Assembly: GCA_965224465.1 (NCBI GenBank)
Contig: OZ245049.1
Span: forward strand, 870,001 to 902,000
Length of the DNA: 32,000 nt
Source: Flavobacteriaceae bacterium
GTDB lineage: Bacteria; Bacteroidota; Bacteroidia; Flavobacteriales; Flavobacteriaceae
Reading direction: 5' to 3'
The translations under genes were made by a program, and so were the position numbers. The notes under the pieces were generated by a model that was not told the DNA's origin, did not search any database, and worked only from the letters and a program-made list of their open reading frames with translations. Each line of letters begins with the position of its first letter. Position 1 is the stretch's first letter. This document shows positions 2,297 to 26,884 of the stretch, in pieces.

Positions 2297-2451
2297 ACCT
2301 ACGATTAAAAACAGACACGCCCTAATAACAAGCACTCCCTACATTGTGAACTAGATGGATATACCATCAAGTTTGGAATTCTTATTGTGAGAATATTACG
2401 TATTACAAAACATTGACATACGCAAACAACTTAATAGAACAAAAAAATAAT

Positions 2452-3138
2452 ATGGTAAAAGCAATATTAATAATAGATGGAAAAGAAGTAAACGTACGTT
2501 GGTTTACTATCAAATTTAATCAAGGAGCAAATCCTAACGGCAGACCTTCTCAAATTCCAGTATTTGTAGGTTTTAAACTAATTATAGAAACTAGAAAAGA
2601 CCTAAACCTAGCTGAATGGTCCTTTTCCTCCAGACAAGCAAAGCAGATCATCTTACATATAAAACCAGTTATTATTGGAGGAAAAACAAGAAAAATATTT
2701 TTCTATGACTGCCATCTTGTAAATTGGAAAACCAATTTTTCTTCTACAGGTTCAGATCCAATGACGGAAACTTTAGAAATCACCTGTGCTGGTGTTGAAG
2801 ATTCTAACTCGTTTGGTGTGTATTCTGCATCTTGGAGAGTTACGTATCCAGCAATAGAGGTTGAAGCTACTACTCTAGAAGAAAACAATAAAGAAATCAC
2901 ACGTTATTATTTAACAAACCCAGAAGGCGAACGCATCGTAGATTATAATGAGGATGATATAATTATAGTAAACACGGAAACCCAAAATCGCATAGGAGAT
3001 GTTTTAACTATAAACTTAGACGATCCTGAGTATGATTTTGAATACAATGGAATTTTACTCATTAATGATTCTCTTGAAATTGTTATTCAAAATAATTTAG
3101 AACTAACAGAATTAAAAGTAGTTGAACAAAATAAATAA
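2452..3138 (+). CDS. Hcp/TssD-like tube-protein domain (aa 1-130) with a ~98-aa C-terminal extension
   Basis: Start placed at ATG 2452; the track ORF begins at an upstream TTG. MVKAILIIDGKEVNV..F.I.FNQ....NGRPS......GF.L.IE...D..LAEW......K.I.L.......GK...I.F.D..LV.W...F...G..PM.E.LEI follows the conserved-residue spacing of Bacteroidota TssD. Residues 131-228 have no counterpart in canonical ~130-aa TssD. Confidence 0.6.
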   Translation: MVKAILIIDGKEVNVRWFTIKFNQGANPNGRPSQIPVFVGFKLIIETRKDLNLAEWSFSSRQAKQIILHIKPVIIGGKTRKIFFYDCHLVNWKTNFSSTGSDPMTETLEITCAGVEDSNSFGVYSASWRVTYPAIEVEATTLEENNKEITRYYLTNPEGERIVDYNEDDIIIVNTETQNRIGDVLTINLDDPEYDFEYNGILLINDSLEIVIQNNLELTELKVVEQNK

Positions 3139-3877
3139 AGAGTAATGACTAAATTAAAAAAAACTGGTTTTAGAATAACATTTGAAGACGGTGAAACTAG
3201 GACTATATACTTACAACCTATTGCGAACAAAAAATGTTCTATTAGGTTTGAGGCAGATAAATCAGACATCATAAATGGTATATTTGGTTTCGATGAGATC
3301 CCTTATAACGACAAATCCCCTGAAAAAAGAACAAAAAAACTATCTGAAATTTGTTTCTCTGACATCCATAAATTAAAAGATGAATACATACCTATTACCG
3401 TAGAAGGTAAAGAATACTTAGCCCCGTGGATCAGTATCAGAAAAGACCAAACAATCACTTTGGATGTGATTCTGAAAATCAAAAAAGAAGAGGAATATCA
3501 AAGTATTGTTTTTGAAGAACATCCTGATTTTACGATAATACCTATAGATAAGAAAGGAACTAAAGTTGATTTAAAAAAAGCTAAAAAAATAAAAATAACC
3601 TGTAATAACACCAACCAAAAAACCGTTCAAATAAAAATAATAGCAGACGAAAAAGAGGCAGGAGCAATAAATTTTTGGTATCCAAAACCAAAAACTATTG
3701 ACCTAAAATGGTATTTCATTGAGCTAACAGGTAACGATAAAGACAATGATGATTTAAAACATAAAATAGACCGATCTAAATTAGAAGCATTACTAAAAAA
3801 AGGTTTAAACCCTGCCTTAATTGATGTTAACATTCTAAATAAAAATGCCGAAATAATTGACATGACCGAATATGCTA

Positions 3878-5003
3878 GCTGAATTCAAGTCACAAACGCA
3901 ACTTTTAGTTAAATAATAATTGTTCCATTACAAATATAGGGTTTTGATATTTATGTCTCTTCCTAGGTCTGTTATTTAATTTTGTTTCTACCTCTTTGAT
4001 TCTTTGATCTGTTAGGTTTGTAAAGTCACTTCCTTTGGCAAAATATTGTCTAATCAAACCATTTAAATTTTCGTTAGATCCTCTTTCCCAAGAGTGATAT
4101 GGATGCGCAAAAAAGTAATCAATACATAAATTTTCTGCAACCTGCTCATGGCCTGCAAATTCTTTTCCATTATCAGCTGTTATAGTATGTAGATAAGGCT
4201 TCCAGTCTTCTAATATTTCATTGATAGCTTTAGTGACAACAACTGCTTCTTTAGAGCTTACTTTTTTCATTTTAAGCATTCCAGAAGCTCTATCATTTAC
4301 GGTAAGTATGGCTTGATTATGGTTTTTACCTATGATTAAATCGACCTCTAAATCTCCAAATCGATTTCTTTGTTCAACAACTTCAGGGCGTTGTTCTATA
4401 CTAATACGATTCTTTATAACCCCTCTAGAATCCTTTGATGAGCCACGTTTTCTATATCTCCTTCCCTGTCTGCGAAGGTGTGTATGTAAATCACCATCAT
4501 TCCTCTTGTCTTCCCTAATATGCTGATATATACGCTCAATAGACACCGTTTCTTTACCTTGTTTTTTTAGGACACCAACTACTTGCTCAGGACTATAATC
4601 GTCTCGCAATAACAACTCTATTGCTTGTTGAATATCTTCTGTAAAGCGTTTTCTTTTAGGCTTTTCTTTATGACGTTTAGCATACTTTTTTTGGGCTAAT
4701 TCATGCTTGTAAACTCCATTTCTTTTGTCTGAATTACGCTTAATCTCTTTGCTAATAACAGACTTGTCTTTTCCTATAGCAGCTGCTATCTCAACCTGTT
4801 TATAACCTTGTTTTAACATGCAACAAATTGTGTATCTTTGCGCTTGGGTGATGTGTTTCATACAACTTCTTTTTTCGAGATTTGAGACCGTAAGATACAT
4901 ATCCATCAAGACAAGAAAGGTAGGTTTTCCTACTTTTCTGTTTTGAAAATATAACCATCATAGAATCAAATCGAAAAGTTGCGTTTATTAGTTGAATTTA
5001 AGA
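3878..5003 (-). mobile_element. IS30-family insertion sequence, copy 1 (1126 bp)
   Basis: About 99% identical (nine substitutions counted by eye) to 25446..26571. Imperfect ~27-bp terminal inverted repeats: 3880..3906 TGAATTCAAGTCACAAACGCAACTTTT versus the reverse complement of 4974..5000, TTAAATTCAACTAATAAACGCAACTTTT. Flanked by a 2-bp direct repeat TA (3876-3877 and 5004-5005). Confidence 0.9.
3905..4861 (-). CDS. IS30-family DDE transposase
   Basis: N-terminal HTH (QRYTICCMLKQGYKQVEIAAAIGKDKSVISKEIKRN). Catalytic core reads FGDLEVDLIIGK...ITADNGKEFAGH...FAHPYHSWERGSNENLNGLIRQYF...LNNRPRK, the classic IS30 signature. Start set at MKHITQAQ (ATG 4861); the track ORF extends to 4909. Confidence 0.9.
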   Translation of the reverse strand: MKHITQAQRYTICCMLKQGYKQVEIAAAIGKDKSVISKEIKRNSDKRNGVYKHELAQKKYAKRHKEKPKRKRFTEDIQQAIELLLRDDYSPEQVVGVLKKQGKETVSIERIYQHIREDKRNDGDLHTHLRRQGRRYRKRGSSKDSRGVIKNRISIEQRPEVVEQRNRFGDLEVDLIIGKNHNQAILTVNDRASGMLKMKKVSSKEAVVVTKAINEILEDWKPYLHTITADNGKEFAGHEQVAENLCIDYFFAHPYHSWERGSNENLNGLIRQYFAKGSDFTNLTDQRIKEVETKLNNRPRKRHKYQNPIFVMEQLLFN

Positions 5004-5478
5004 TATTAAATATTTTAAAAAAAGAAATATCATCAAAAAACAAGGAAGGTATACTTATATTGAAAGTGATAAAAAAGAATTATTTTCTGGAGCTGTACAA
5101 CAATTTTCAAAACCAGATCATAACATTGTAAACCTCTACATTACAAACCGTACATGTATAAATACAGATGAACTAAATAATGAAAATAAAACTTTTGATG
5201 CAGTTGCAGGTTTTTCTCCTGTCAATACAGGTGTTGCTTTTGGAATTTTAGAACCGAATGATCAAAAACTTTTACCAACCGCAGTTATGCACGAAATAAT
5301 GCATGCTTTAGGCTTAAAACACACATTTACGGAAGGTGAAGAGGGTGATTTAGGAAAAAAACATGTATTTAAACTAAAAAGCAGTACTAATTATATGGAC
5401 TATAAAAAAAGAAAGGAGTTTACTTGGAAATGGCAATGGGAGAAATTGCACAATTATTCACACTTAAAATAACCGATT

Positions 5479-6171
5479 ATGAAATTCTTATATTTTACTA
5501 TTAGTAGCATCTTATTTATTTCTTGTAGCTCTCTACCAAAGGAATATCTAACTACCAATAACAGTTGTTATTATAATGATCCTATTTTTAAAATCACAAA
5601 AGATGAAATGGTTTTTGACGTTAAAAAATATGGTAAAAAACTTGAAGAAGGTGATTTAGTTTTAGTTGATAATCCGAATTTTAAAAACTTATATTATCAA
5701 TGGGCAAAAGATAAAGACATAATGAACATACAAAGTAATAAAAACCTTCGTATTGACAAAAACATTGGTTTTTATCCAAATGGAAATATACAATATAGTA
5801 ATTTTGAATATGTTAATGGAGATACCAAAATAGGTAAAGAAACAGATTACAATCAACAAGGCAATATAACCAAAGTAATAGATTATGAAAAAGGCTATCA
5901 AATATGTTGGACAGAAGCTATTGAAATTGTAAAACAAATAGCTAAAAAAGATATCAAAAAATACAACGTCACTAGTTTTAATCTTCTGCGAAATAATATG
6001 AATGAATTTCCTGACCTAAAACCAGAATGGGAAATCACTTTGAACGGAAATGAAGAATATGAAGAAAAAAAATATTCTAAAAAAGGTAAAAAGATTTATA
6101 TTATTGATGGTATCACAGGGGGTTTAACAAATATAAAAGCGATTAGAATGATCTATCCTGGTATGGAGTAA
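5479..6171 (+). CDS. Secreted lipoprotein-like protein, array copy 1 (candidate immunity protein; variant A)
   Basis: 230 aa. Signal peptide with Cys (SSILFISC-SS). Starts 6 nt after the metallopeptidase stop. The central aa 52-125 are variable and MORN/YwqK-like (YPNGNIQYSNFEYVNGD...). The C-terminal TEAIEIVKQIAKKDIKKYNVTSF...EWEITLNG...KKIYIIDGITGGL resembles a PepSY fold pattern. Confidence 0.8.
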   Translation: MKFLYFTISSILFISCSSLPKEYLTTNNSCYYNDPIFKITKDEMVFDVKKYGKKLEEGDLVLVDNPNFKNLYYQWAKDKDIMNIQSNKNLRIDKNIGFYPNGNIQYSNFEYVNGDTKIGKETDYNQQGNITKVIDYEKGYQICWTEAIEIVKQIAKKDIKKYNVTSFNLLRNNMNEFPDLKPEWEITLNGNEEYEEKKYSKKGKKIYIIDGITGGLTNIKAIRMIYPGME

Positions 6172-6311
6172 TTACATATTTAAAAAAAAGAAATAGCATC
6201 AAAAAAACAAGGAAGGCATACTTATATTTAAAGTAATAAAAAAGAAAGGAGTTTACTTGGAAATGGCAATGGGAGAAATTGCACAATTATTCACACTTAA
6301 AATAACCGATT
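6172..6311 (+). pseudogene. Toxin-gene ghost 1 (5' ~65 nt joined to 3' ~70 nt of the toxin C-part; catalytic core absent)
   Basis: Aligns to ~5009..5078 and then directly to ~5411..5478. The junction lies in the microhomology ATAAAAAAGAA. About 333 nt, including HEIMHALGLKH, are missing. An in-frame TAA (TATATTTAA versus TATATTGAA) makes it non-coding. Confidence 0.8.
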
Positions 6312-7001
6312 ATGAAATTCTTATATTTTATTATTAGTAGTATCTTATTTATTTCTTGTAGCTCTCTACCAAAGGAATATCTAACTACCAATAACAGTTG
6401 TTATTATAATGATCCTATTTTTAAAATCACAAAAGATGAAATGGTTTTTGACGTTAAAAAGTATAAAGACACATTGGATAAAGGGCGTTTAGTTTTTACA
6501 AAACGTAATAATTTAAAAAATAATTTTCATAAATCTAAAGATGGAAGTATAACTTTTAAACAAACAAACAAGCGATTAAATATTCAAAGGACAATTGAAT
6601 ATGATAAAAAAGGCAATATATTATTATCTTACTTTAAGTATTTAAATGGTAGTTCGTATCTAAAAAAAGAAACATCCTATGACCAACAAGGCAATATAAC
6701 CAAAGTAATAGATTACGAAAAAGGCTATCAGATATGTTGGACAGAAGCTATTGAAATTGTAAAACAAATAGCTAAAAAAGACATTGAAAAATACAACGTC
6801 ACTAGTTTTAATCTTTTGCGAAACGATATGAATGAATTTCCTGACCTAAAACCAGAATGGGAAATCACTTTGAACGGAAATGAAGAATATGAAGAAAAAA
6901 AATATTCTAAAAAAGGTAAAAAGATTTATATTATTGACGGTAACACAGGGGATTTAACAAATATAAAAGCGATTAGAATGATCTATCCTGGTATGGAGTA
7001 A
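6312..7001 (+). CDS. Secreted lipoprotein-like protein, array copy 2 (variant B)
   Basis: 229 aa. The first 51 aa and last ~105 aa are near-identical to copy 1. The centre is unrelated in sequence (KDTLDKGRLVFTKRNNLKNNFHKSKDGSITFKQTNKRLNIQRTIEYDKKGNILLSYFKYLNGSSY). Confidence 0.8.
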   Translation: MKFLYFIISSILFISCSSLPKEYLTTNNSCYYNDPIFKITKDEMVFDVKKYKDTLDKGRLVFTKRNNLKNNFHKSKDGSITFKQTNKRLNIQRTIEYDKKGNILLSYFKYLNGSSYLKKETSYDQQGNITKVIDYEKGYQICWTEAIEIVKQIAKKDIEKYNVTSFNLLRNDMNEFPDLKPEWEITLNGNEEYEEKKYSKKGKKIYIIDGNTGDLTNIKAIRMIYPGME

Positions 7002-7140
7002 ATACATGTTTAAAAAAATAAATATCATCAAAAAAACAAGGAAGGCATACTTATATTTAAAGTAATAAAAAAGAAAGAAGTTTACTTGGAAATGGCAATG
7101 GGAGAAATTGCACAATTATTCACACTTAAAATAACCGATT
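7002..7140 (+). pseudogene. Toxin-gene ghost 2
   Basis: Same composition and same deletion junction as ghost 1. Confidence 0.8.
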
Positions 7141-7833
7141 ATGAAATTCTTATATTTTACTATTAGTAGCATCTTATTTATTTCTTGTAGCTCTCTACCA
7201 AAGGAATATCTAACTACCAATAGCAGTTGTTATTATAATGATCCTATTTTTAAAATCACAAAAGATGAAATGGTTTTTGATATTAAAAAATATGGTAAAA
7301 AACTTGAAGAAGGTGATTTAGTTTTAGTTGATAATCAGAATTTTAAAAATGAATATTATAAATGGAAAGGAGATAGTAAGATTACAAATAGCCAAATTAA
7401 CAAATCGTTAAATATCAAGAAACTTATAAAATATGACGAAAAAGGCAACATATTATTTTCTTACTTTAAGTATTTAAATGGTAGTACGTATCTAAAAAAT
7501 GAAACATCCTATGACCAACAAGGCAATATAACCAAAGTAATAGATTACGAAAAAGGCTATCAAATATGTTGGACAGAAGCTATTGAAATTGTAAAACAAA
7601 TAGCTAAAAAAGATATCAAAAAATACAACGTCACTAGTTTTAATCTTTTGCGAAACGATATGAATGAATTTCCTGACCTAAAACCAGAATGGGAAATCAC
7701 TTTAAACGGAAATGAAGAATATGAAGAAAAAAAATATTCTAAAAAAGGTAAAAAGATTTATATTATTGATGGTATCACAGGAAATTTAACAAATACAAAA
7801 GCGATTAGAATGATCTATCCTGGTATGGAGTAA
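7141..7833 (+). CDS. Secreted lipoprotein-like protein, array copy 3 (A/B chimera)
   Basis: 230 aa. The centre starts like copy 1 (GKKLEEGDLVLVDNQNFKN) and ends like copies 2/4 (KYDEKGNILFSYFKYLNGSTYLKNETSYDQQGN). Confidence 0.8.
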   Translation: MKFLYFTISSILFISCSSLPKEYLTTNSSCYYNDPIFKITKDEMVFDIKKYGKKLEEGDLVLVDNQNFKNEYYKWKGDSKITNSQINKSLNIKKLIKYDEKGNILFSYFKYLNGSTYLKNETSYDQQGNITKVIDYEKGYQICWTEAIEIVKQIAKKDIKKYNVTSFNLLRNDMNEFPDLKPEWEITLNGNEEYEEKKYSKKGKKIYIIDGITGNLTNTKAIRMIYPGME

Positions 7834-7972
7834 ATACATATTTAAAAAAATAAATATCATCAAAAAAACAAGGAAGGCATACTTATATTTAAAGTAATAA
7901 AAAAGAAAGAAGTTTACTTGGAAATGGCAATGGGAGAAATTGCACAATTATTCACACTTAAAATAACCGATT
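7834..7972 (+). pseudogene. Toxin-gene ghost 3
   Basis: Same composition and same deletion junction as ghosts 1 and 2. Confidence 0.8.
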
Positions 7973-8662
7973 ATGAAATTCTTATATTTTACTATTAGTA
8001 GCATCTTATTTATTTCTTGTAGCTCTCTACCAAAGGAATATCTAACTACCAATAGCAGTTGTTATTATAATGATCCTATTTTTAAAATCACAAAAGATGA
8101 AATGGTTTTTGACGTTAAAAAGTATAAAGACACATTGGATAAAGGGCGTTTAGTTTTTACAAAACGTAATAATTTAAAAAATAATTTTCATAAATCTAAA
8201 GATGGAAGTATAACTTTTAAACAAACAAACAAGCGATTAAATATTCAAAGGACAATTGAATATGATAAAAAAGGCAATATATTATTATCTTACTTTAAGT
8301 ATTTAAATGGTAGTTCGTATCTAAAAAAAGAAACAACCTATGACCAACAAGGCAATATAACCAAAGTAATAGATTACGAAAAAGGCTATCAAATATGTTG
8401 GACAGAAGCTATTGAAATTGTAAAACAAATAGCTAAAAAAGACATAAAAAAATACAACGTCACTAGTTTTAATCTTCTGCGAAATGATATGAATGAATTT
8501 CCTGACCTAAAACCAGAATGGGAAATCACTTTGAACGGAAATGAAGAATATGAAGAAAAAAAATATTCTAAAAAAGGTAAAAAGATTTATATTATTGATG
8601 GTATCACAGGAAATTTAACAAATATAAAAACCATTAGAATGATCTATCCTGGCATGGAGTAA
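7973..8662 (+). CDS. Secreted lipoprotein-like protein, array copy 4 (variant B)
   Basis: 229 aa. Differs from copy 2 at only a handful of residues (positions 7 and 28, ETS/ETT, DIE/DIK, GNTGD/GITGN, KAI/KTI). Confidence 0.8.
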   Translation: MKFLYFTISSILFISCSSLPKEYLTTNSSCYYNDPIFKITKDEMVFDVKKYKDTLDKGRLVFTKRNNLKNNFHKSKDGSITFKQTNKRLNIQRTIEYDKKGNILLSYFKYLNGSSYLKKETTYDQQGNITKVIDYEKGYQICWTEAIEIVKQIAKKDIKKYNVTSFNLLRNDMNEFPDLKPEWEITLNGNEEYEEKKYSKKGKKIYIIDGITGNLTNIKTIRMIYPGME

Positions 8663-8799
8663 ATACATGTTTACAATCACCAAAAATGTTCGTATAGTGT
8701 GTAGCCCCAAGAAGTAATACCGTGTTAAGCATGCTGCCTCAAAAGAGGAAACTATAGGATTTGCGTAGTGTAATAAAAGAGCTATCGAAAGTACCTCCA

Positions 8800-8848
8800 C
8801 TCTCTACCAAAAGAATATCTAACTATCAATAACAGTTGTTATTATAAT
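8800..8848 (+). pseudogene. 49-nt fragment of a fifth lipoprotein gene copy (codons ~17-33 only)
   Basis: CTCTCTACCAAAAGAATATCTAACTATCAATAACAGTTGTTATTATAAT matches the SLPKEYLTTNNSCYYN-coding segment of the array genes. There is no start codon or signal-peptide portion upstream. Confidence 0.7.
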
Positions 8849-8918
8849 TTTATTAATGCATGATAACGCTTTTAGAAATAATGAAACAAACTAAAAACAC
8901 TCATAAAAAAAACTTAAA

Positions 8919-9608
8919 ATGAAAAATAGATATAAAATAATAATTACGATAATTACCATAGCGATTATACTAATCTGTATTTTTGTATATGGATTGTTTA
9001 GATATGAATGGAATAACTATGCAATTGGTAAGACATATGAAATACAAGGAATATCTGATGTTATTGAAAAAGGTGATTTAATTATTTTCACAACAATAAA
9101 TCCTTATTTATTTATATCAAATGACGCAGGAAAAACATGGAGTATAAAAATGTTTAACCTCAATGAAGATGAAAATATTTTTAACGGCTTAGGTATAACA
9201 AAAGAAACAATCTCTTTTATTTCAAAAAAGAATTCAGATGGTGATACGTCTCCTCAATTTTTATATATAAGTACTGATAATGGTAGTAATTGGAGCAAAA
9301 AAAACATTGAGAAAATATTGTGTTTTAATAGAAACCTTTCGAATGAATCTGTTTCAATCAATAATGGGATTTTAGAGTGTTTTGACTTTGATAAAAATGT
9401 TACTCATTACTCTAATGATTATGGAAAAACATGGAAAGAAACCAACCAAAGAATAGGTGAATTAGAAAACATAAAATTTTCAAAAACAGCAAAAAACAAC
9501 ACTTATTTTGTTAGAAAATACAACAAGAAAACAAATGAATTCAACTCGTTATTTTCTATTAAAAAAGAGTTTGAAATTAATTTATTTGGAGATATTAGAT
9601 TTAAATGA
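8919..9608 (+). CDS. Membrane-anchored BNR/Asp-box repeat protein
   Basis: 229 aa. N-terminal TM helix (IIITIITIAIILICIFVYGLF). Three Asp-box-like motifs: SNDAGKTWS, STDNGSNWS, SNDYGKTWK. Confidence 0.6.
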   Translation: MKNRYKIIITIITIAIILICIFVYGLFRYEWNNYAIGKTYEIQGISDVIEKGDLIIFTTINPYLFISNDAGKTWSIKMFNLNEDENIFNGLGITKETISFISKKNSDGDTSPQFLYISTDNGSNWSKKNIEKILCFNRNLSNESVSINNGILECFDFDKNVTHYSNDYGKTWKETNQRIGELENIKFSKTAKNNTYFVRKYNKKTNEFNSLFSIKKEFEINLFGDIRFK

Positions 9609-25070: not shown

Positions 25071-25445
25071 GACGTAGTATTTTTTCGAGTGTACTTTTCC
25101 CTCTTTAGTTATCAAATTAATCTGATACAATCCATTTTTTAATCCACTTAACAATTCCTTATTACTGGTTGCATTATTAATCTTCTGAGTACTTAATTTC
25201 GTTACTTCACTCGTGCGTATATTTACTGCTGTCCAAATTCATGAACTAATACTTTTTTCGATGAATACTTATCTTCAACAACTAATGTATATTTACCCCT
25301 TTGAGCAAAAGCTTCATAACCACTAATACCTCCGTTTACATATATTTTATAATTCGCTTGTTTATCATAAAATGAAGTTGGCCAAGTACTTTTAGTTCTA
25401 TAGTCATTTAGATTTGTAAAATGATAAAGACTATTTTTAAATACA

Positions 25446-26571
25446 GCTGAATTCAAGTCACAAACGCAACTTTTAGTTAAATAATAATTGTTCCATTACA
25501 AATATAGGGTTTTCGTATTTATGTCTCTTCCTAGGTCTGTTATTTAATTTTGTTTCTACCTCTTTGATTCTTTGATCTGTTAGGTTTGTAAAGTCACTTC
25601 CTTTGGCAAAATATTGTCTAATCAAACCATTTAAATTTTCGTTAGATCCTCTTTCCCAAGAGTGATATGGATGCGCAAAAAAGTAATCAATACATAAATT
25701 TTCTGCAACCTGCTCATGGCCTGCAAATTCTTTTCCATTATCAGCTGTTATAGTATGTAGATAAGGCTTCCAGTCTTCTAATATTTCATTGATAGCTTTG
25801 GTGACAACAACTGCTTCTTTAGAGCTTACTTTTTTCATTTTAAGCATTCCAGAAGCTCTATCATTTACGGTAAGTATGGCTTGATTATGGTTTTTACCTA
25901 TGATTAAATCGACCTCTAAATCTCCAAATCGATTTCTTTGTTCAACAACTTCAGGTCGTTGTTCTATACTAATGCGATTCTTTATAACCCCTCTAGAATC
26001 CTTTGATGAGCCACGTTTTCTATATCTCCTTCCCTGTCTGCGAAGGTGTGTATGTAAATCACCATCATTCCTCTTGTCTTCCCTAATATGCTGATATATA
26101 CGCTCAATAGACACCGTTTCTTTACCTTGTTTTTTTAGGATACCAACTACTTGCTCAGGACTATAATCGTCTCGCAATAACAATTCTATTGCTTGTTGAA
26201 TATCTTCTGTAAAGCGTTTTCTTTTAGGCTTTTCTTTATGACGTTTAGCATACTTTTTTTGGGCTAATTCATGCTTGTAAACTCCATTTCTTTTGTCTGA
26301 ATTACGCTTAATCTCTTTGCTAATAACAGACTTGTCTTTTCCTATAGCAGCTGCTATCTCAACCTGTTTATAACCTTGTTTTAACATGCAGCAAATTGTG
26401 TATCTTTGTGCTTGGGTGATGTGTTTCATACAACTTCTTTTTTCGAGATTTGAGACCGTAAGATACATATCCATCAAGACAAGAAAGGTAGGTTTTCCTA
26501 CTTTTCTGTTTTGAAAATATAACCATCATAGAATCAAATCGAAAAGTTGCGTTTATTAGTTGAATTTAAGA
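25446..26571 (-). mobile_element. IS30-family insertion sequence, copy 2 (1126 bp)
   Basis: Same orientation as copy 1 and ~99% identical to it. Flanked by a 2-bp direct repeat CA (25444-25445 and 26572-26573). Confidence 0.9.
25473..26429 (-). CDS. IS30-family DDE transposase
   Basis: Differs from the copy-1 protein at two residues (V/I in VVG(V/I)LKKQG; Q/E in KY(Q/E)NPIF). Confidence 0.9.
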   Translation of the reverse strand: MKHITQAQRYTICCMLKQGYKQVEIAAAIGKDKSVISKEIKRNSDKRNGVYKHELAQKKYAKRHKEKPKRKRFTEDIQQAIELLLRDDYSPEQVVGILKKQGKETVSIERIYQHIREDKRNDGDLHTHLRRQGRRYRKRGSSKDSRGVIKNRISIEQRPEVVEQRNRFGDLEVDLIIGKNHNQAILTVNDRASGMLKMKKVSSKEAVVVTKAINEILEDWKPYLHTITADNGKEFAGHEQVAENLCIDYFFAHPYHSWERGSNENLNGLIRQYFAKGSDFTNLTDQRIKEVETKLNNRPRKRHKYENPIFVMEQLLFN

Positions 26572-26884
26572 CATCAAAACCTACCCCTTTAATTAAAGTA
26601 TCATATGTATTAAAATGATTATTCAATAAAACAATCATTTTTTCAAAATGAGACTTATAATTTGAAGTGGAAAGCCCTATACCGTCATCCTTAGTAATAA
26701 AAATAATTTTAACTTTTAGAGGAATTATTTCATTCAAATAATTAGTTGAATATAACGAATAAGATTTTGTCCCCATTAATTCTTTGGAAGGAGGAAAATA
26801 CTCCTCAACCACACCGCATCTAAAAGGCTTATTATCAGAATGTGGAAATAAATCTTTTCCGTTGTTTATTTGACTAAAAACGGA

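What the first reader, a model, noticed from the sequence alone, without database searches (positions are those of the whole stretch)
5632..8344. Mosaic hypervariable cassette (aa 52-125) inside otherwise near-identical lipoprotein paralogues
Seen: the four proteins are almost identical over aa 1-51 and from QQGNITKVIDYEKG to the end, but their centres fall into distinct types. Copy 1 is type A. Copies 2 and 4 are type B, near-identical to each other. Copy 3 starts as A (GKKLEEGDLVLVDNQNFKN) and finishes as B-like (KYDEKGNILFSYFKYLNGSTYLKNETSYDQQGN). The order is A-B-A/B-B. Variable segments are roughly 5632..5853, 6465..6683, 7294..7515 and 8126..8344. Inference: an A-B pair was duplicated and then underwent gene conversion or crossover within the centre. 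A sharply bounded diversified segment on a constant scaffold suggests a specificity determinant, for example recognition of different toxin alleles, while the PepSY-like module stays constant.
Basis: partly seen in the sequence, partly recalled or inferred. Interest (0 to 1): 0.65.

Follow-up and report, generated by a model that had tools for sequence, protein, structure and literature searches.

The report
Mosaic immunity-gene array beside broken toxin
Four tandem copies of a lipoprotein that probably protects against a secreted bacterial protease toxin keep near-identical ends by recombining with each other, while their middles are old, conserved, interchangeable cassettes; this pattern is real but already known from other toxin-immunity gene arrays.

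Summary
The four genes (5479..6171, 6312..7001, 7141..7833, 7973..8662) are 96-99% identical at both ends. In the centre (aa 52-125), A and B types are only 55% identical.

They are tandem immunity-lipoprotein paralogues of an Hcp-linked type VI secretion zinc-metallopeptidase toxin. An IS30-family element splits that toxin gene. Each spacer is an internally deleted remnant of the toxin's 3' end.

The centre is not fast-evolving.
- Synonymous sites between types are saturated (dS >1, against 0.04-0.15 in the flanks).
- dN/dS is below 1.
- Each sub-cassette type recurs in other organisms under strong purifying selection (omega 0.12-0.18).

Copy 3 reads as A | a third type C | B-like, not a simple A x B recombinant. 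Flank sites do not support an A-B pair duplication.

The same constant-flank, divergent-centre pattern occurs in arrays of other marine Flavobacteriaceae. Remote relatives show the C-terminal domain is PepSY and the centre is MORN_2-like.

Toxin sequence tracks the PepSY domain, not the centre, so the specificity role stays plausible but unsupported.

The closest precedent is recombination through conserved blocks in T7SS immunity arrays (EsaG, TipC). I rate this a new member of a known kind.

The parts
2413..3138 (+). Hcp (TssD) gene with a C-terminal extension of about 110 aa. This is the type VI secretion carrier for the toxin.
   Evidence: Pfam PF17642 TssD, E = 1.3e-22, aa 15-129. Hcp lies upstream of, or is fused to, the toxin in relatives: 13 of 22 toxins carry TssD.
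3145..3882 (+). N-terminal 245 aa of the toxin gene, cut off by the IS insertion.
   Evidence: tblastn shows this part contiguous with the metallopeptidase part in a single ORF of 374-536 aa in more than 25 other loci.
3882..4998 (-). IS30-family insertion sequence (transposase 3905..4909) that splits the toxin gene.
   Evidence: NCBIfam transpos_IS30, E = 1.2e-86. 25-nt terminal inverted repeats at 3882-3906 and 4974-4998. A second copy, 99% identical, lies at 25445..26578.
5002..5472 (+). C-terminal metzincin-like zinc-metallopeptidase domain of the toxin. The HEIMHALGLKH motif is at 5290..5322.
   Evidence: Reading frame. The HExxHxxGxxH motif and a Met in NYMDY are invariant across 22 relatives. 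Weak astacin/matrixin/met-zincin hits fall below Pfam cut-offs.
5479..6171 (+). Immunity lipoprotein copy 1. Its centre, 5632..5853, is type A.
   Evidence: Its right sub-cassette is 84% nt identical to metagenomic P0007.
6172..6311 (+). Spacer 1-2. It is a toxin 3'-end remnant (matching 5005-5081 plus about 5410-5478) with about 330 bp deleted, including the catalytic motif.
   Evidence: Direct-repeat families D1, D4 and D5. Alignments.
6312..7001 (+). Immunity lipoprotein copy 2. Its centre, 6465..6683, is type B.
   Evidence: Its middle sub-cassette is 88% nt identical to metagenomic P0008, whose flanks are only 61-76% identical.
7002..7140 (+). Spacer 2-3, carrying the same deleted toxin remnant.
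7141..7833 (+). Immunity lipoprotein copy 3. Its centre, 7294..7515, is mosaic: 7294..7349 type A, 7350..7429 type C, 7430..7515 B-like.
   Evidence: Mismatch counts. MaxChi p < 5e-5. The type C middle is 84% nt identical to P0004.
7834..7972 (+). Spacer 3-4, carrying the same deleted toxin remnant.
7973..8662 (+). Immunity lipoprotein copy 4. Its centre, 8126..8344, is type B and differs from copy 2 at 1 of 219 positions.
   Evidence: The c2-c4 centre is more alike than their flanks (1/219 against 15/471, Fisher p = 0.028).
8800..8848 (+). 49-nt fragment of a fifth copy (codons about 18-33), left at the decayed end of the array.
   Evidence: Repeat family D3, 96% identity. blastn.

Best explanation
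What the locus is. It is a type VI secretion effector-immunity locus of a marine Flavobacteriaceae-type genome. The gene order is Hcp, then a metzincin-like zinc-metallopeptidase toxin (now split by an IS30-family element), then a tandem array of four immunity lipoprotein paralogues. A fragment of a fifth copy follows.

Protein architecture. Each protein has a lipoprotein signal (Cys16) and a short conserved N-terminal segment. The centre is a sheet of MORN_2-like beta-hairpins (aa about 58-135), and the C-terminus is a PepSY-type domain.

How the array formed. The repeat unit (about 831 bp) was generated by duplicating the toxin C-terminal part together with the immunity gene. About 330 bp of catalytic core were then deleted from the toxin remnant, and the resulting unit was amplified.

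How the mosaic arises. Homologous recombination between copies (gene conversion or unequal crossing-over) runs through two long homology blocks. One block is the spacer plus the first 153 nt of the gene. The other is the last 318 nt. This keeps the blocks 96-99% identical. The centre is too diverged to be converted piecemeal. It persists as discrete old cassette types (A, B, C). These are conserved within type, shared with other species, and occasionally swapped whole (c2 and c4) or in part (the left 56 nt of c3, from c1).

Likely function (inferred). The PepSY domain is the common metallopeptidase-binding module. The variable face of the beta-sheet adds contacts that tune which toxin variants each copy neutralises. 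This would resemble the TipC and colicin-Im style of recognition.
For: Shown:
- Locus identity and conserved synteny, Hcp-toxin-(1 to 8) immunity genes, in 30+ loci.
- The spacers are deleted toxin remnants.
- Flank against centre identity and breakpoints.
- Centre dS 1.1-1.2, against flank dS 0.04-0.15, with omega < 1.
- All three possible 2|2 site partitions occur in the flanks, which indicates exchange among copies.
- The c2-c4 centre is more alike than their flanks.
- Cassette sub-types recur in other organisms at 84-88% nt identity, while those genes' flanks are 61-79% identical to the window copies. Within-type omega is 0.12-0.18, and cassette dS is lower than flank dS.
- The same constant-flank, divergent-centre pattern appears in independent arrays: L008, L013, L015, L016 by the set criterion, L001 and L017 by eye. 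In L002 and L012 the C-terminal tail is an additional swappable module.
- PepSY and MORN_2 hits fall at the matching positions in relatives.
- The AF2 model is confident (pLDDT 84.7) and shows 7 beta-strands followed by an alpha/beta domain.

Published precedent: tandem immunity paralogues recombining through conserved 5' and 3' blocks, with the variable beta face binding the toxin (PMC9484751). Immunity arrays with effector remnants are also described (PMC5361080).
Against: - The specificity role of the centre is not supported by co-variation. Toxin C-terminal domain distances track the PepSY domain (Mantel r = 0.63-0.64), not the centre sub-segments (r = 0.13-0.32). The partial Mantel, centre given C1, is r = 0.08, p = 0.14.
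- Toxins that are 86% identical (L033 and L034) are followed by C-type and B-type centres. A toxin only 38% identical to the window's (L038) is followed by an A-type right cassette.
- It is unknown which member of an array is cognate to its toxin, and centre distances are near saturation. The test therefore has low power.
- The window proteins themselves have no Pfam hit. Foldseek with the isolated C-domain found nothing.
- No binding or protection data exist.
- The order of duplication, deletion and conversion events cannot be resolved from one genome.
Confidence: 0.6

Rival explanations
1. Neutral by-product. The centre is only a structural stalk or spacer with no role in toxin recognition. 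Old paralogues had their conserved ends homogenised by gene conversion. The centre stays divergent merely because it is too dissimilar to recombine. Copies are kept for dosage, or have simply not decayed yet.
For: There is no co-variation of the centre with the adjacent toxin, whereas the PepSY domain does co-vary. The homogenised block boundaries coincide with the family-wide conserved blocks. dN/dS is below 1 everywhere except a 15-codon stretch.
Against: All four copies are intact despite saturated synonymous divergence in the centre. Each type is under strong purifying selection between organisms (omega 0.12-0.18). The same types persist across genera, and several types are kept side by side in many arrays. 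This is not expected for redundant spacers. The centre is confidently folded, with one conserved and one variable sheet face.
Confidence: 0.27
2. A recent A-B gene pair was duplicated to A-B-A-B. A crossover or conversion between A and B then occurred inside the centre of copy 3.
For: The centre order reads A, B, A-start, B, and c2 and c4 centres are 99.5% identical. In another array (L012) two centre types recur in the same order (3965 and 5696, then 7910 and 8946), which could be a duplicated pair.
Against: Informative sites in flanks and spacers favour 12|34 (5 sites) over 13|24 (2 sites). Spacers before c3 and c4 are alike and differ from the one before c2. The middle 80 nt of the c3 centre match neither A nor B (35/80 and 34/80 mismatches). 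They match a type-C relative at 84% instead, and that relative also has a B-like right part.
Confidence: 0.1
3. In-place hypermutation or an arms race. The centre diverged after a recent duplication through positive selection, or through a targeted mutator such as a diversity-generating retroelement.
For: Only aa 52-66 show omega of about 1.9-2.0 between A and B, based on very few sites.
Against: Synonymous sites in the centre are saturated while the flanks are at dS 0.04-0.15. Cassette types are conserved in other organisms. No cassette-like donor copy lies elsewhere in the window. The search for a reverse transcriptase was not exhaustive: only selected ORFs were scanned against Pfam.
Confidence: 0.03

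Closest known systems
Tandem T7SS immunity paralogues EsaG (Staphylococcus aureus) and TipC (Streptococcus), which recombine through conserved homology blocks (Garrett et al. 2022, PMC9484751)
   Same: Both have strings of non-identical immunity genes next to a polymorphic toxin. Both have blocks of high nucleotide identity at the 5' and 3' ends (tipC) flanking a divergent region, statistically supported recombination between paralogues, and variable copy number between genomes. In TipC the variable region is a beta-sheet face that binds the toxin.
   Different: The secretion system differs (Bacteroidota-type T6SS with Hcp, not T7SS). So do the phylum, the toxin (metzincin-like peptidase) and the immunity fold (lipoprotein with MORN_2-like hairpins plus PepSY). 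Here the variable block exists as discrete trans-specific cassette types that are themselves split into sub-cassettes, and the spacers are toxin remnants.
Orphan immunity gene arrays with effector 3' remnants in Vibrio cholerae T6SS clusters (Kirchberger et al. 2017, PMC5361080), and acquired interbacterial defence arrays of Bacteroidales (PMC12247911)
   Same: Arrays of immunity genes lie downstream of a T6SS effector. Pieces of effector 3' ends sit between immunity genes. The presumed benefit is protection against neighbours' toxin variants.
   Different: In Vibrio the array members are unrelated immunity families added by successive displacement. Here all members are paralogues of one family with homogenised ends. 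No recombinase of the rAID type is present in the part examined.
Colicin DNase-immunity (Im) dual recognition. This comparison rests on my own knowledge; the idea is cited in PMC9484751.
   Same: A conserved part of the immunity protein supplies common binding energy, and a variable part sets specificity. Divergence concentrates at the interface.
   Different: The folds are unrelated, the genes are plasmid-borne single genes rather than a chromosomal tandem array, and for the present family the contact surfaces are unknown.
PepSY domains of M4 peptidase propeptides and YpeB (Pfam PF03413)
   Same: The C-terminal domain of distant family members matches PepSY. PepSY is associated with inhibition of metallopeptidases, which fits an immunity protein for a zinc-peptidase toxin.
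   Different: The window proteins do not reach any Pfam threshold. The toxin is metzincin-like rather than M4. Structural similarity to YpeB is weak (E = 6e-3) and is lost when the domain is searched alone.

Membership tests
T6SS effector-immunity locus with immunity array (polymorphic toxin system) | The immunity gene lies directly downstream of the toxin gene, on the same strand | tested here: met
   c1 starts 7 nt after the toxin stop. The same arrangement is found in 30+ loci.
T6SS effector-immunity locus with immunity array (polymorphic toxin system) | Physical link of the toxin to a T6SS carrier (Hcp, VgrG or PAAR) | tested here: met
   A TssD/Hcp gene lies immediately upstream (E = 1.3e-22). 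13 of 22 homologous toxins have Hcp fused at the N-terminus. The family profile matches Bacteroidales TssD structures.
T6SS effector-immunity locus with immunity array (polymorphic toxin system) | The immunity protein binds and neutralises the cognate toxin | not testable with these tools
   This needs co-expression, competition or binding experiments. Only toxin-PepSY distance co-variation was obtained (r = 0.63-0.64).
T6SS effector-immunity locus with immunity array (polymorphic toxin system) | Effector remnants between orphan immunity genes | tested here: met
   All three spacers equal the toxin 3' end with one shared internal deletion.
Homology-block recombination among tandem immunity paralogues (EsaG/TipC type) | Non-identical tandem paralogues with conserved nucleotide blocks flanking a divergent region | tested here: met
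   Flanks are 96-99% identical against 55-71% in the centre.
Homology-block recombination among tandem immunity paralogues (EsaG/TipC type) | Statistically supported recombination between paralogues | tested here: met
   MaxChi p < 5e-5. Segment-wise Fisher tests give 8e-11 and 3e-9. Incompatible site partitions occur in the flanks. GARD and RDP were not run.
Homology-block recombination among tandem immunity paralogues (EsaG/TipC type) | Copy-number change and chimeras among closely related strains | not tested
   Only between-species variation was seen, 1 to 8 copies. No conspecific genomes were available.
PepSY domain (PF03413) | The profile HMM match reaches the gathering score | tested here: inconclusive
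   The window copies give no hit at E <= 0.1. 10 of 53 family members hit PepSY at the homologous position. Two are above the cut-off: P0103 at 27.3 bits and P0095 at 27.8 bits, against 24.
PepSY domain (PF03413) | Helix packed on a small antiparallel sheet, similar to solved PepSY structures | tested here: inconclusive
   The predicted elements H144-161, E166-171, E183-189, E204-210 and E216-222 fit this description. The whole-protein Foldseek top hit is the YpeB C-terminal domain, E = 6e-3, TM 0.23. The isolated domain gave nothing below E = 0.5.
MORN_2 / YwqK-like repeats (PF07661) | Profile match to the repeat in the central region | tested here: inconclusive
   There is no hit in the window copies. 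3 of 53 relatives hit it. Two of those hits (P0124 aa 118-135, P0133 aa 88-101) lie in the centre of ordinary-length members. The model shows seven consecutive beta-hairpin strands, and OspA-like single-layer sheets are among the Foldseek hits.
Metzincin zinc metallopeptidase (toxin) | An HExxHxxGxxH zinc-binding motif plus a downstream conserved Met | tested here: met
   HEIMHALGLKH lies at 5290..5322. H, E, H, G, H and a Met in NYMDY are invariant in 22 relatives. Calling that Met the Met-turn is an inference.
Metzincin zinc metallopeptidase (toxin) | A significant profile match to a curated metzincin family | tested here: not met
   Only sub-threshold hits were found, to Astacin, Peptidase_M10, Reprolysin and DUF4953 (E 5e-4 to 0.1).
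Programmed cassette variation (pilin-type silent cassettes or a diversity-generating retroelement) | Silent donor cassettes, or a reverse transcriptase with a template repeat nearby | tested here: not met
   tblastn of the three centre types finds only the four genes in the 32 kb window. No reverse transcriptase turned up among the ORFs scanned, but only selected ORFs were scanned.

The most novel reading that the evidence does not exclude
The beta-hairpin centre is a combinatorial specificity code. Three or more sub-cassettes (left, middle, right) each exist as a few ancient alleles kept by balancing selection across genera. Recombination within arrays, through the constant blocks, reshuffles them. 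A genome thereby carries a small 'repertoire' of immunity proteins that share one PepSY inhibitory plug but read different exosites of variant metallopeptidase toxins. This would be an innate, gene-conversion-driven analogue of antigen-receptor diversification for interbacterial defence.
Probability: 0.2. Interest if true: 0.6.

Novelty: new member of a known kind. Interest (0 to 1): 0.4.

Why it matters
This work defines an uncharacterised toxin-immunity family. The toxin is an Hcp-borne metzincin-like peptidase. The immunity protein is a lipoprotein with a MORN_2-like sheet and a PepSY domain. The family is small (106 cluster representatives among 1.84 billion). Every relative with a named source organism is a Flavobacteriaceae/Flavobacteriales genome, most of them from marine genera. 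It shows that the 'constant homology blocks plus variable core' mode of immunity-array evolution, described for Gram-positive T7SS, also operates in Bacteroidota T6SS loci.

The discrete, conserved, trans-specific cassettes give a clean experimental handle. Swapping about 74 residues between otherwise identical proteins would test directly whether, and how, immunity specificity is encoded apart from the inhibitory domain. The finding does not reveal a new kind of system.

Tried and rejected
- Pfam and NCBIfam scans of the window lipoproteins found nothing usable.
- A PDB sequence-profile search with the family found no hit.
- Foldseek of the whole model gave only weak hits to YpeB and OspA. 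Foldseek of the isolated C-domain model gave nothing below E = 0.5. The PepSY fold could therefore not be confirmed structurally.
- Exact look-ups of the two other paralogues from the same genome (P0013, P0028) failed. Other loci of the source genome, and possible donors of the type C cassette, could not be examined. The genome itself was not among the genome-contig hits.
- The mirror-tree (Mantel) test for centre-toxin co-variation gave no support, but its power is low.
- Visual inspection for an association between toxin loop types and centre types found no one-to-one mapping.
- A search for a Bacteroidota -7 promoter motif (TAnnTTTG) in the spacers found none, only a relaxed TATATTTA.
- Rfam found no RNA family in the window.
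- In-place positive selection was rejected because dS is saturated and omega is below 1.
- An assembly artefact was rejected because the copies carry distinct substitutions and lie on a 5.24 Mb contig.


Full report
**1. Observation**

Four intact ORFs of 229-230 aa lie head to tail at 5479..6171 (c1), 6312..7001 (c2), 7141..7833 (c3) and 7973..8662 (c4). The start-to-start period is 829-833 bp.

In protein and nucleotide alignments the copies are almost identical over aa 1-51 and aa 126-230. They diverge sharply in between.
- Flank nucleotide identity is 96-99%.
- Centre identity is 55% for c1-c2 and c1-c4, 67% for c1-c3, 70-71% for c2-c3 and c3-c4, and 99.5% for c2-c4.
- The variable block is alignment columns 154-375.
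- For c1-c2 there are 98/219 mismatches in the centre against 14/471 in the flanks (Fisher p = 1e-41).

**2. Copy 3**

Relative to c1 (type A) and c2 (type B), c3 falls into three zones.

| Columns | Window coordinates | Mismatches to c1 | Mismatches to c2 |
|---|---|---|---|
| 154-209 | 7294..7349 | 1/56 | 24/56 |
| 210-289 | 7350..7429 | 35/80 | 34/80 |
| 290-375 | 7430..7515 | 38/86 | 6/86 |

A maximum chi-square scan over A/B-informative sites gives chi2 = 42.5, with permutation p < 5e-5. Segment-wise Fisher tests give 8e-11 and 3e-9.

**3. What the locus is**

The genes upstream of the array read as follows.
- 2413..3138 encodes an Hcp/TssD protein (PF17642, E = 1.3e-22).
- 3145..3882 and 5002..5472 are the two halves of one toxin gene.
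- An IS30-family element separates those halves. Its transposase is 3905..4909 (NCBIfam E = 1.2e-86), and its 25-nt inverted repeats are at 3882-3906 and 4974-4998.

In more than 25 loci from other Flavobacteriaceae the two halves form one continuous ORF of 374-536 aa. That ORF is directly followed by one to eight homologues of the lipoprotein. In 13 of 22 of these toxins an Hcp domain is fused at the N-terminus.

The toxin's C-terminal domain carries HEIMHALGLKH. H, E, H, G, H and a downstream Met are invariant in the family. Curated metzincin families are hit only below threshold.

The gene order, the Hcp link and the conserved pairing identify the lipoproteins as the toxin's immunity proteins.

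The three spacers (6172..6311, 7002..7140, 7834..7972) are the toxin's 3' end with one shared internal deletion of about 330 bp. The deletion removes the catalytic motif. A 49-nt piece of a fifth copy lies at 8800..8848.

**4. Protein architecture**

The family is small. There are 46 clusters in the 5.8-billion-protein set, and 106 representatives at E <= 1e-3 among 1.84 billion. Every relative with a named source organism is a Flavobacteriaceae/Flavobacteriales genome, most of them from marine genera.

The window copies have no Pfam or NCBIfam hit.

Among 53 family members scanned:
- 10 match PepSY (PF03413) at the C-terminal domain, two of them above the gathering score.
- 3 match MORN_2 (PF07661). 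For two of these (P0124, P0133) the match lies in the centre.

An AlphaFold2 model built on 42 sequences is confident (pLDDT 84.7; above 90 through most of the centre). It shows:
- a helix at 48-57;
- seven consecutive beta-strands at 60-135;
- an alpha/beta domain at 144-222.

Foldseek gives only weak hits to the YpeB PepSY-repeat domain (E = 6e-3) and to OspA single-layer sheets. The C-domain modelled alone finds nothing.

Cys16 (the lipobox Cys), Cys30 and Cys143 are invariant in the closer family.

**5. The centre is old, not fast**

Nei-Gojobori estimates:
- Centre, A against B: dS = 1.23 and dN = 0.60, so omega is about 0.5.
- Flanks: dS = 0.04-0.15, omega = 0.06-0.43.
- Only aa 52-66 have omega near 2, and that rests on about 4 synonymous differences.

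Synonymous saturation in the centre rules out recent in-place diversification.

Each sub-cassette has a close counterpart in another organism.

| Sub-cassette | Counterpart | nt identity of the cassette | nt identity of that gene's flanks to the window copies |
|---|---|---|---|
| B middle (aa 67-97) | metagenomic P0008 | 88% | 61-76% |
| C middle | P0004 | 84% | 69-87% |
| A right (aa 98-125) | P0007 | 84% | 63-77% |

Within type, omega is 0.12-0.18. In all three gene pairs the cassette dS (0.41-0.78) is lower than dS of the C-terminal flank segments (0.96-1.55). The N-terminal flank dS is also higher in two of the pairs, and equal in c1-P0007 (0.75 against 0.77).

The centre therefore consists of discrete, conserved, trans-specific modules, and 'hypervariable' is a misnomer.

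P0004 combines a C-type middle with a B-like right part, just as c3 does. So the C|B-like junction of c3 need not be a recent crossover. The simplest reading is a C-type gene whose left 56 nt were recently converted by c1.

**6. Exchange among the copies**

Outside the centre, parsimony-informative sites support all three possible partitions: 12|34 at five sites, 13|24 at two and 14|23 at two. This is incompatible with a single tree.

The c2 and c4 centres differ at 1/219 positions, although their flanks differ at 15/471 (p = 0.028). This points to a recent whole-cassette conversion.

**7. The pattern is a family property**

Pairs with at most 10% protein distance in the PepSY core but at least 40% in the centre occur within arrays of L008 (Tenacibaculum), L013 (Aquimarina longa), L015 and L016 (Aquimarina). 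They also occur between loci of related genomes. L001 and L017 show the same pattern by eye.

In L002 and L012 the last 45 or so residues form a further module that assorts independently of the centre. In L012 each of three centre types occurs twice, each time with a different tail. The adjacent pairs 3965/5696 and 7910/8946 share their tail, whereas the adjacent pair 6451/7148 does not.

Across the family, centre types recur across genera.

The boundaries of the homogenised blocks coincide with the family-wide conserved blocks. This is what is expected if those blocks are the substrates for homologous recombination.

**8. Does the centre set toxin specificity?**

I took 25 toxin-immunity pairs and compared pairwise distances.
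- Toxin C-terminal domain distances correlate with the PepSY domain (Mantel r = 0.64 and 0.63 for its two halves).
- They correlate only weakly with the centre sub-segments (r = 0.13-0.32).
- The partial correlation of toxin with centre, given the PepSY core, is 0.08 (p = 0.14). The converse is 0.58 (p = 0.0005).

The centre lies physically between the toxin gene and the PepSY region, so linkage does not explain this.

The toxins of L033 and L034 are 86% identical but are followed by C-type and B-type centres. The L038 toxin is 38% identical to the window's, yet it is followed by an A-type right cassette.

These results favour the PepSY domain as the toxin-tracking module and give no support to the centre as the determinant. 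Two caveats apply:
- Centre distances are near saturation.
- It is unknown which array member is cognate to the toxin.

Four observations argue that the types differ functionally:
- several intact types are retained per array;
- the types are ancient;
- each type is under purifying selection;
- one sheet face is variable.

Toxin-variant recognition is the most natural function, by analogy with TipC (PMC9484751). I treat it as an inference, at roughly 40% belief.

**9. Comparison with what is known**

Garrett et al. [quoted passage not shown] Those genes recombine through conserved blocks, which in tipC lie at the 5' and 3' ends. The variable concave beta face of TipC binds the toxin.

Kirchberger et al. 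2017 describe T6SS immunity arrays with effector remnants.

The present array combines both features in a new, uncharacterised family and a different secretion-system lineage. It adds the observation of sub-cassette types shared across genera. It is a new member of a known kind.

**10. Verdict**

- The mosaic and the recombination are real.
- The pair-duplication history is not supported.
- The 'hypervariable' label is not supported either.
- The specificity role is untested and is not backed by co-variation.

Interest is moderate (0.4).

Noticed in passing
window 3882..4998 and 25445..26578: There are two copies of the same IS30-family element, 99% identical over 1134 bp. One interrupts the toxin gene between its N-terminal part and the metallopeptidase domain. 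The toxin is therefore inactivated while all immunity copies stay intact.
   Followed up: partly
window 6172..6311, 7002..7140, 7834..7972 (compare 5005..5081 and about 5410..5478): Every spacer is the toxin's 3' end with the same internal deletion of about 330 bp. The deletion lies between two A-rich direct repeats (ATAAAAAAGAA and ATAAAAAAAGAA) and removes the HExxH motif. One deletion event therefore preceded amplification of the unit, or the spacers were homogenised later.
   Followed up: partly
window 8663..8918: After copy 4 the spacer homology stops within about 12 nt. An unrelated, more G+C-rich stretch of about 125 nt follows (8674..8799), then a 49-nt fragment of a fifth immunity gene (8800..8848). 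The origin of the G+C-rich stretch is unknown; it has no repeat in the window or in the fetched loci.
   Followed up: partly
window 8919..9608: A 229-aa membrane-anchored BNR/Asp-box protein lies here, with a borderline match to the T6SS Tli3 immunity family (PF24316, E = 4.9e-6, 27.3 bits against a cut-off of 27). It may be a further orphan immunity gene of another family at the end of the array.
   Followed up: no
window 2413..3138: The Hcp/TssD protein has a C-terminal extension of about 110 aa beyond the Hcp domain. In many relatives Hcp is instead fused directly to the toxin, giving proteins of about 460-536 aa.
   Followed up: partly
proteins P0095, P0099, P0120 (753-760 aa): Long proteins carry the immunity-like module at their C-terminus. 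It matches family profile positions 4-173 in P0095 and 7-172 in P0099, but only positions 52-161 in P0120. P0095, the only one scanned, has an N-terminal PAAR motif and a C-terminal PepSY hit. They could be toxin-immunity read-through calls or genuine fusions.
   Followed up: no
loci L002 (5121..9372) and L012 (3965..9668): In these longer arrays the last 45 or so residues of the immunity protein come in two or more types that assort independently of the centre. In L012 each centre type appears twice, each time with a different tail.
   Followed up: partly
window about 5424..5478 and the same stretch in each spacer: An ATG-initiated frame, MAMGEIAQLF..., overlaps the toxin's conserved WKWQW-encoding 3' end. 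In several relatives (L012, L016-L018, L027, L033, L034) this frame runs in-frame into the immunity gene, so gene callers extend the protein. In the window it is out of frame by one base. It is probably a by-product of toxin coding constraint.
   Followed up: no
window 5223..5230 (the stretch at 5054..5061 in copy 1's upstream toxin sequence) against 6223, 7052 and 7884: The three spacers read TATATTTA where the intact toxin sequence upstream of copy 1 reads TATATTGA. This creates a relaxed match to the Bacteroidota -7 promoter motif (TAnnTTTG). No canonical motif is present, so the significance is unknown.
   Followed up: partly
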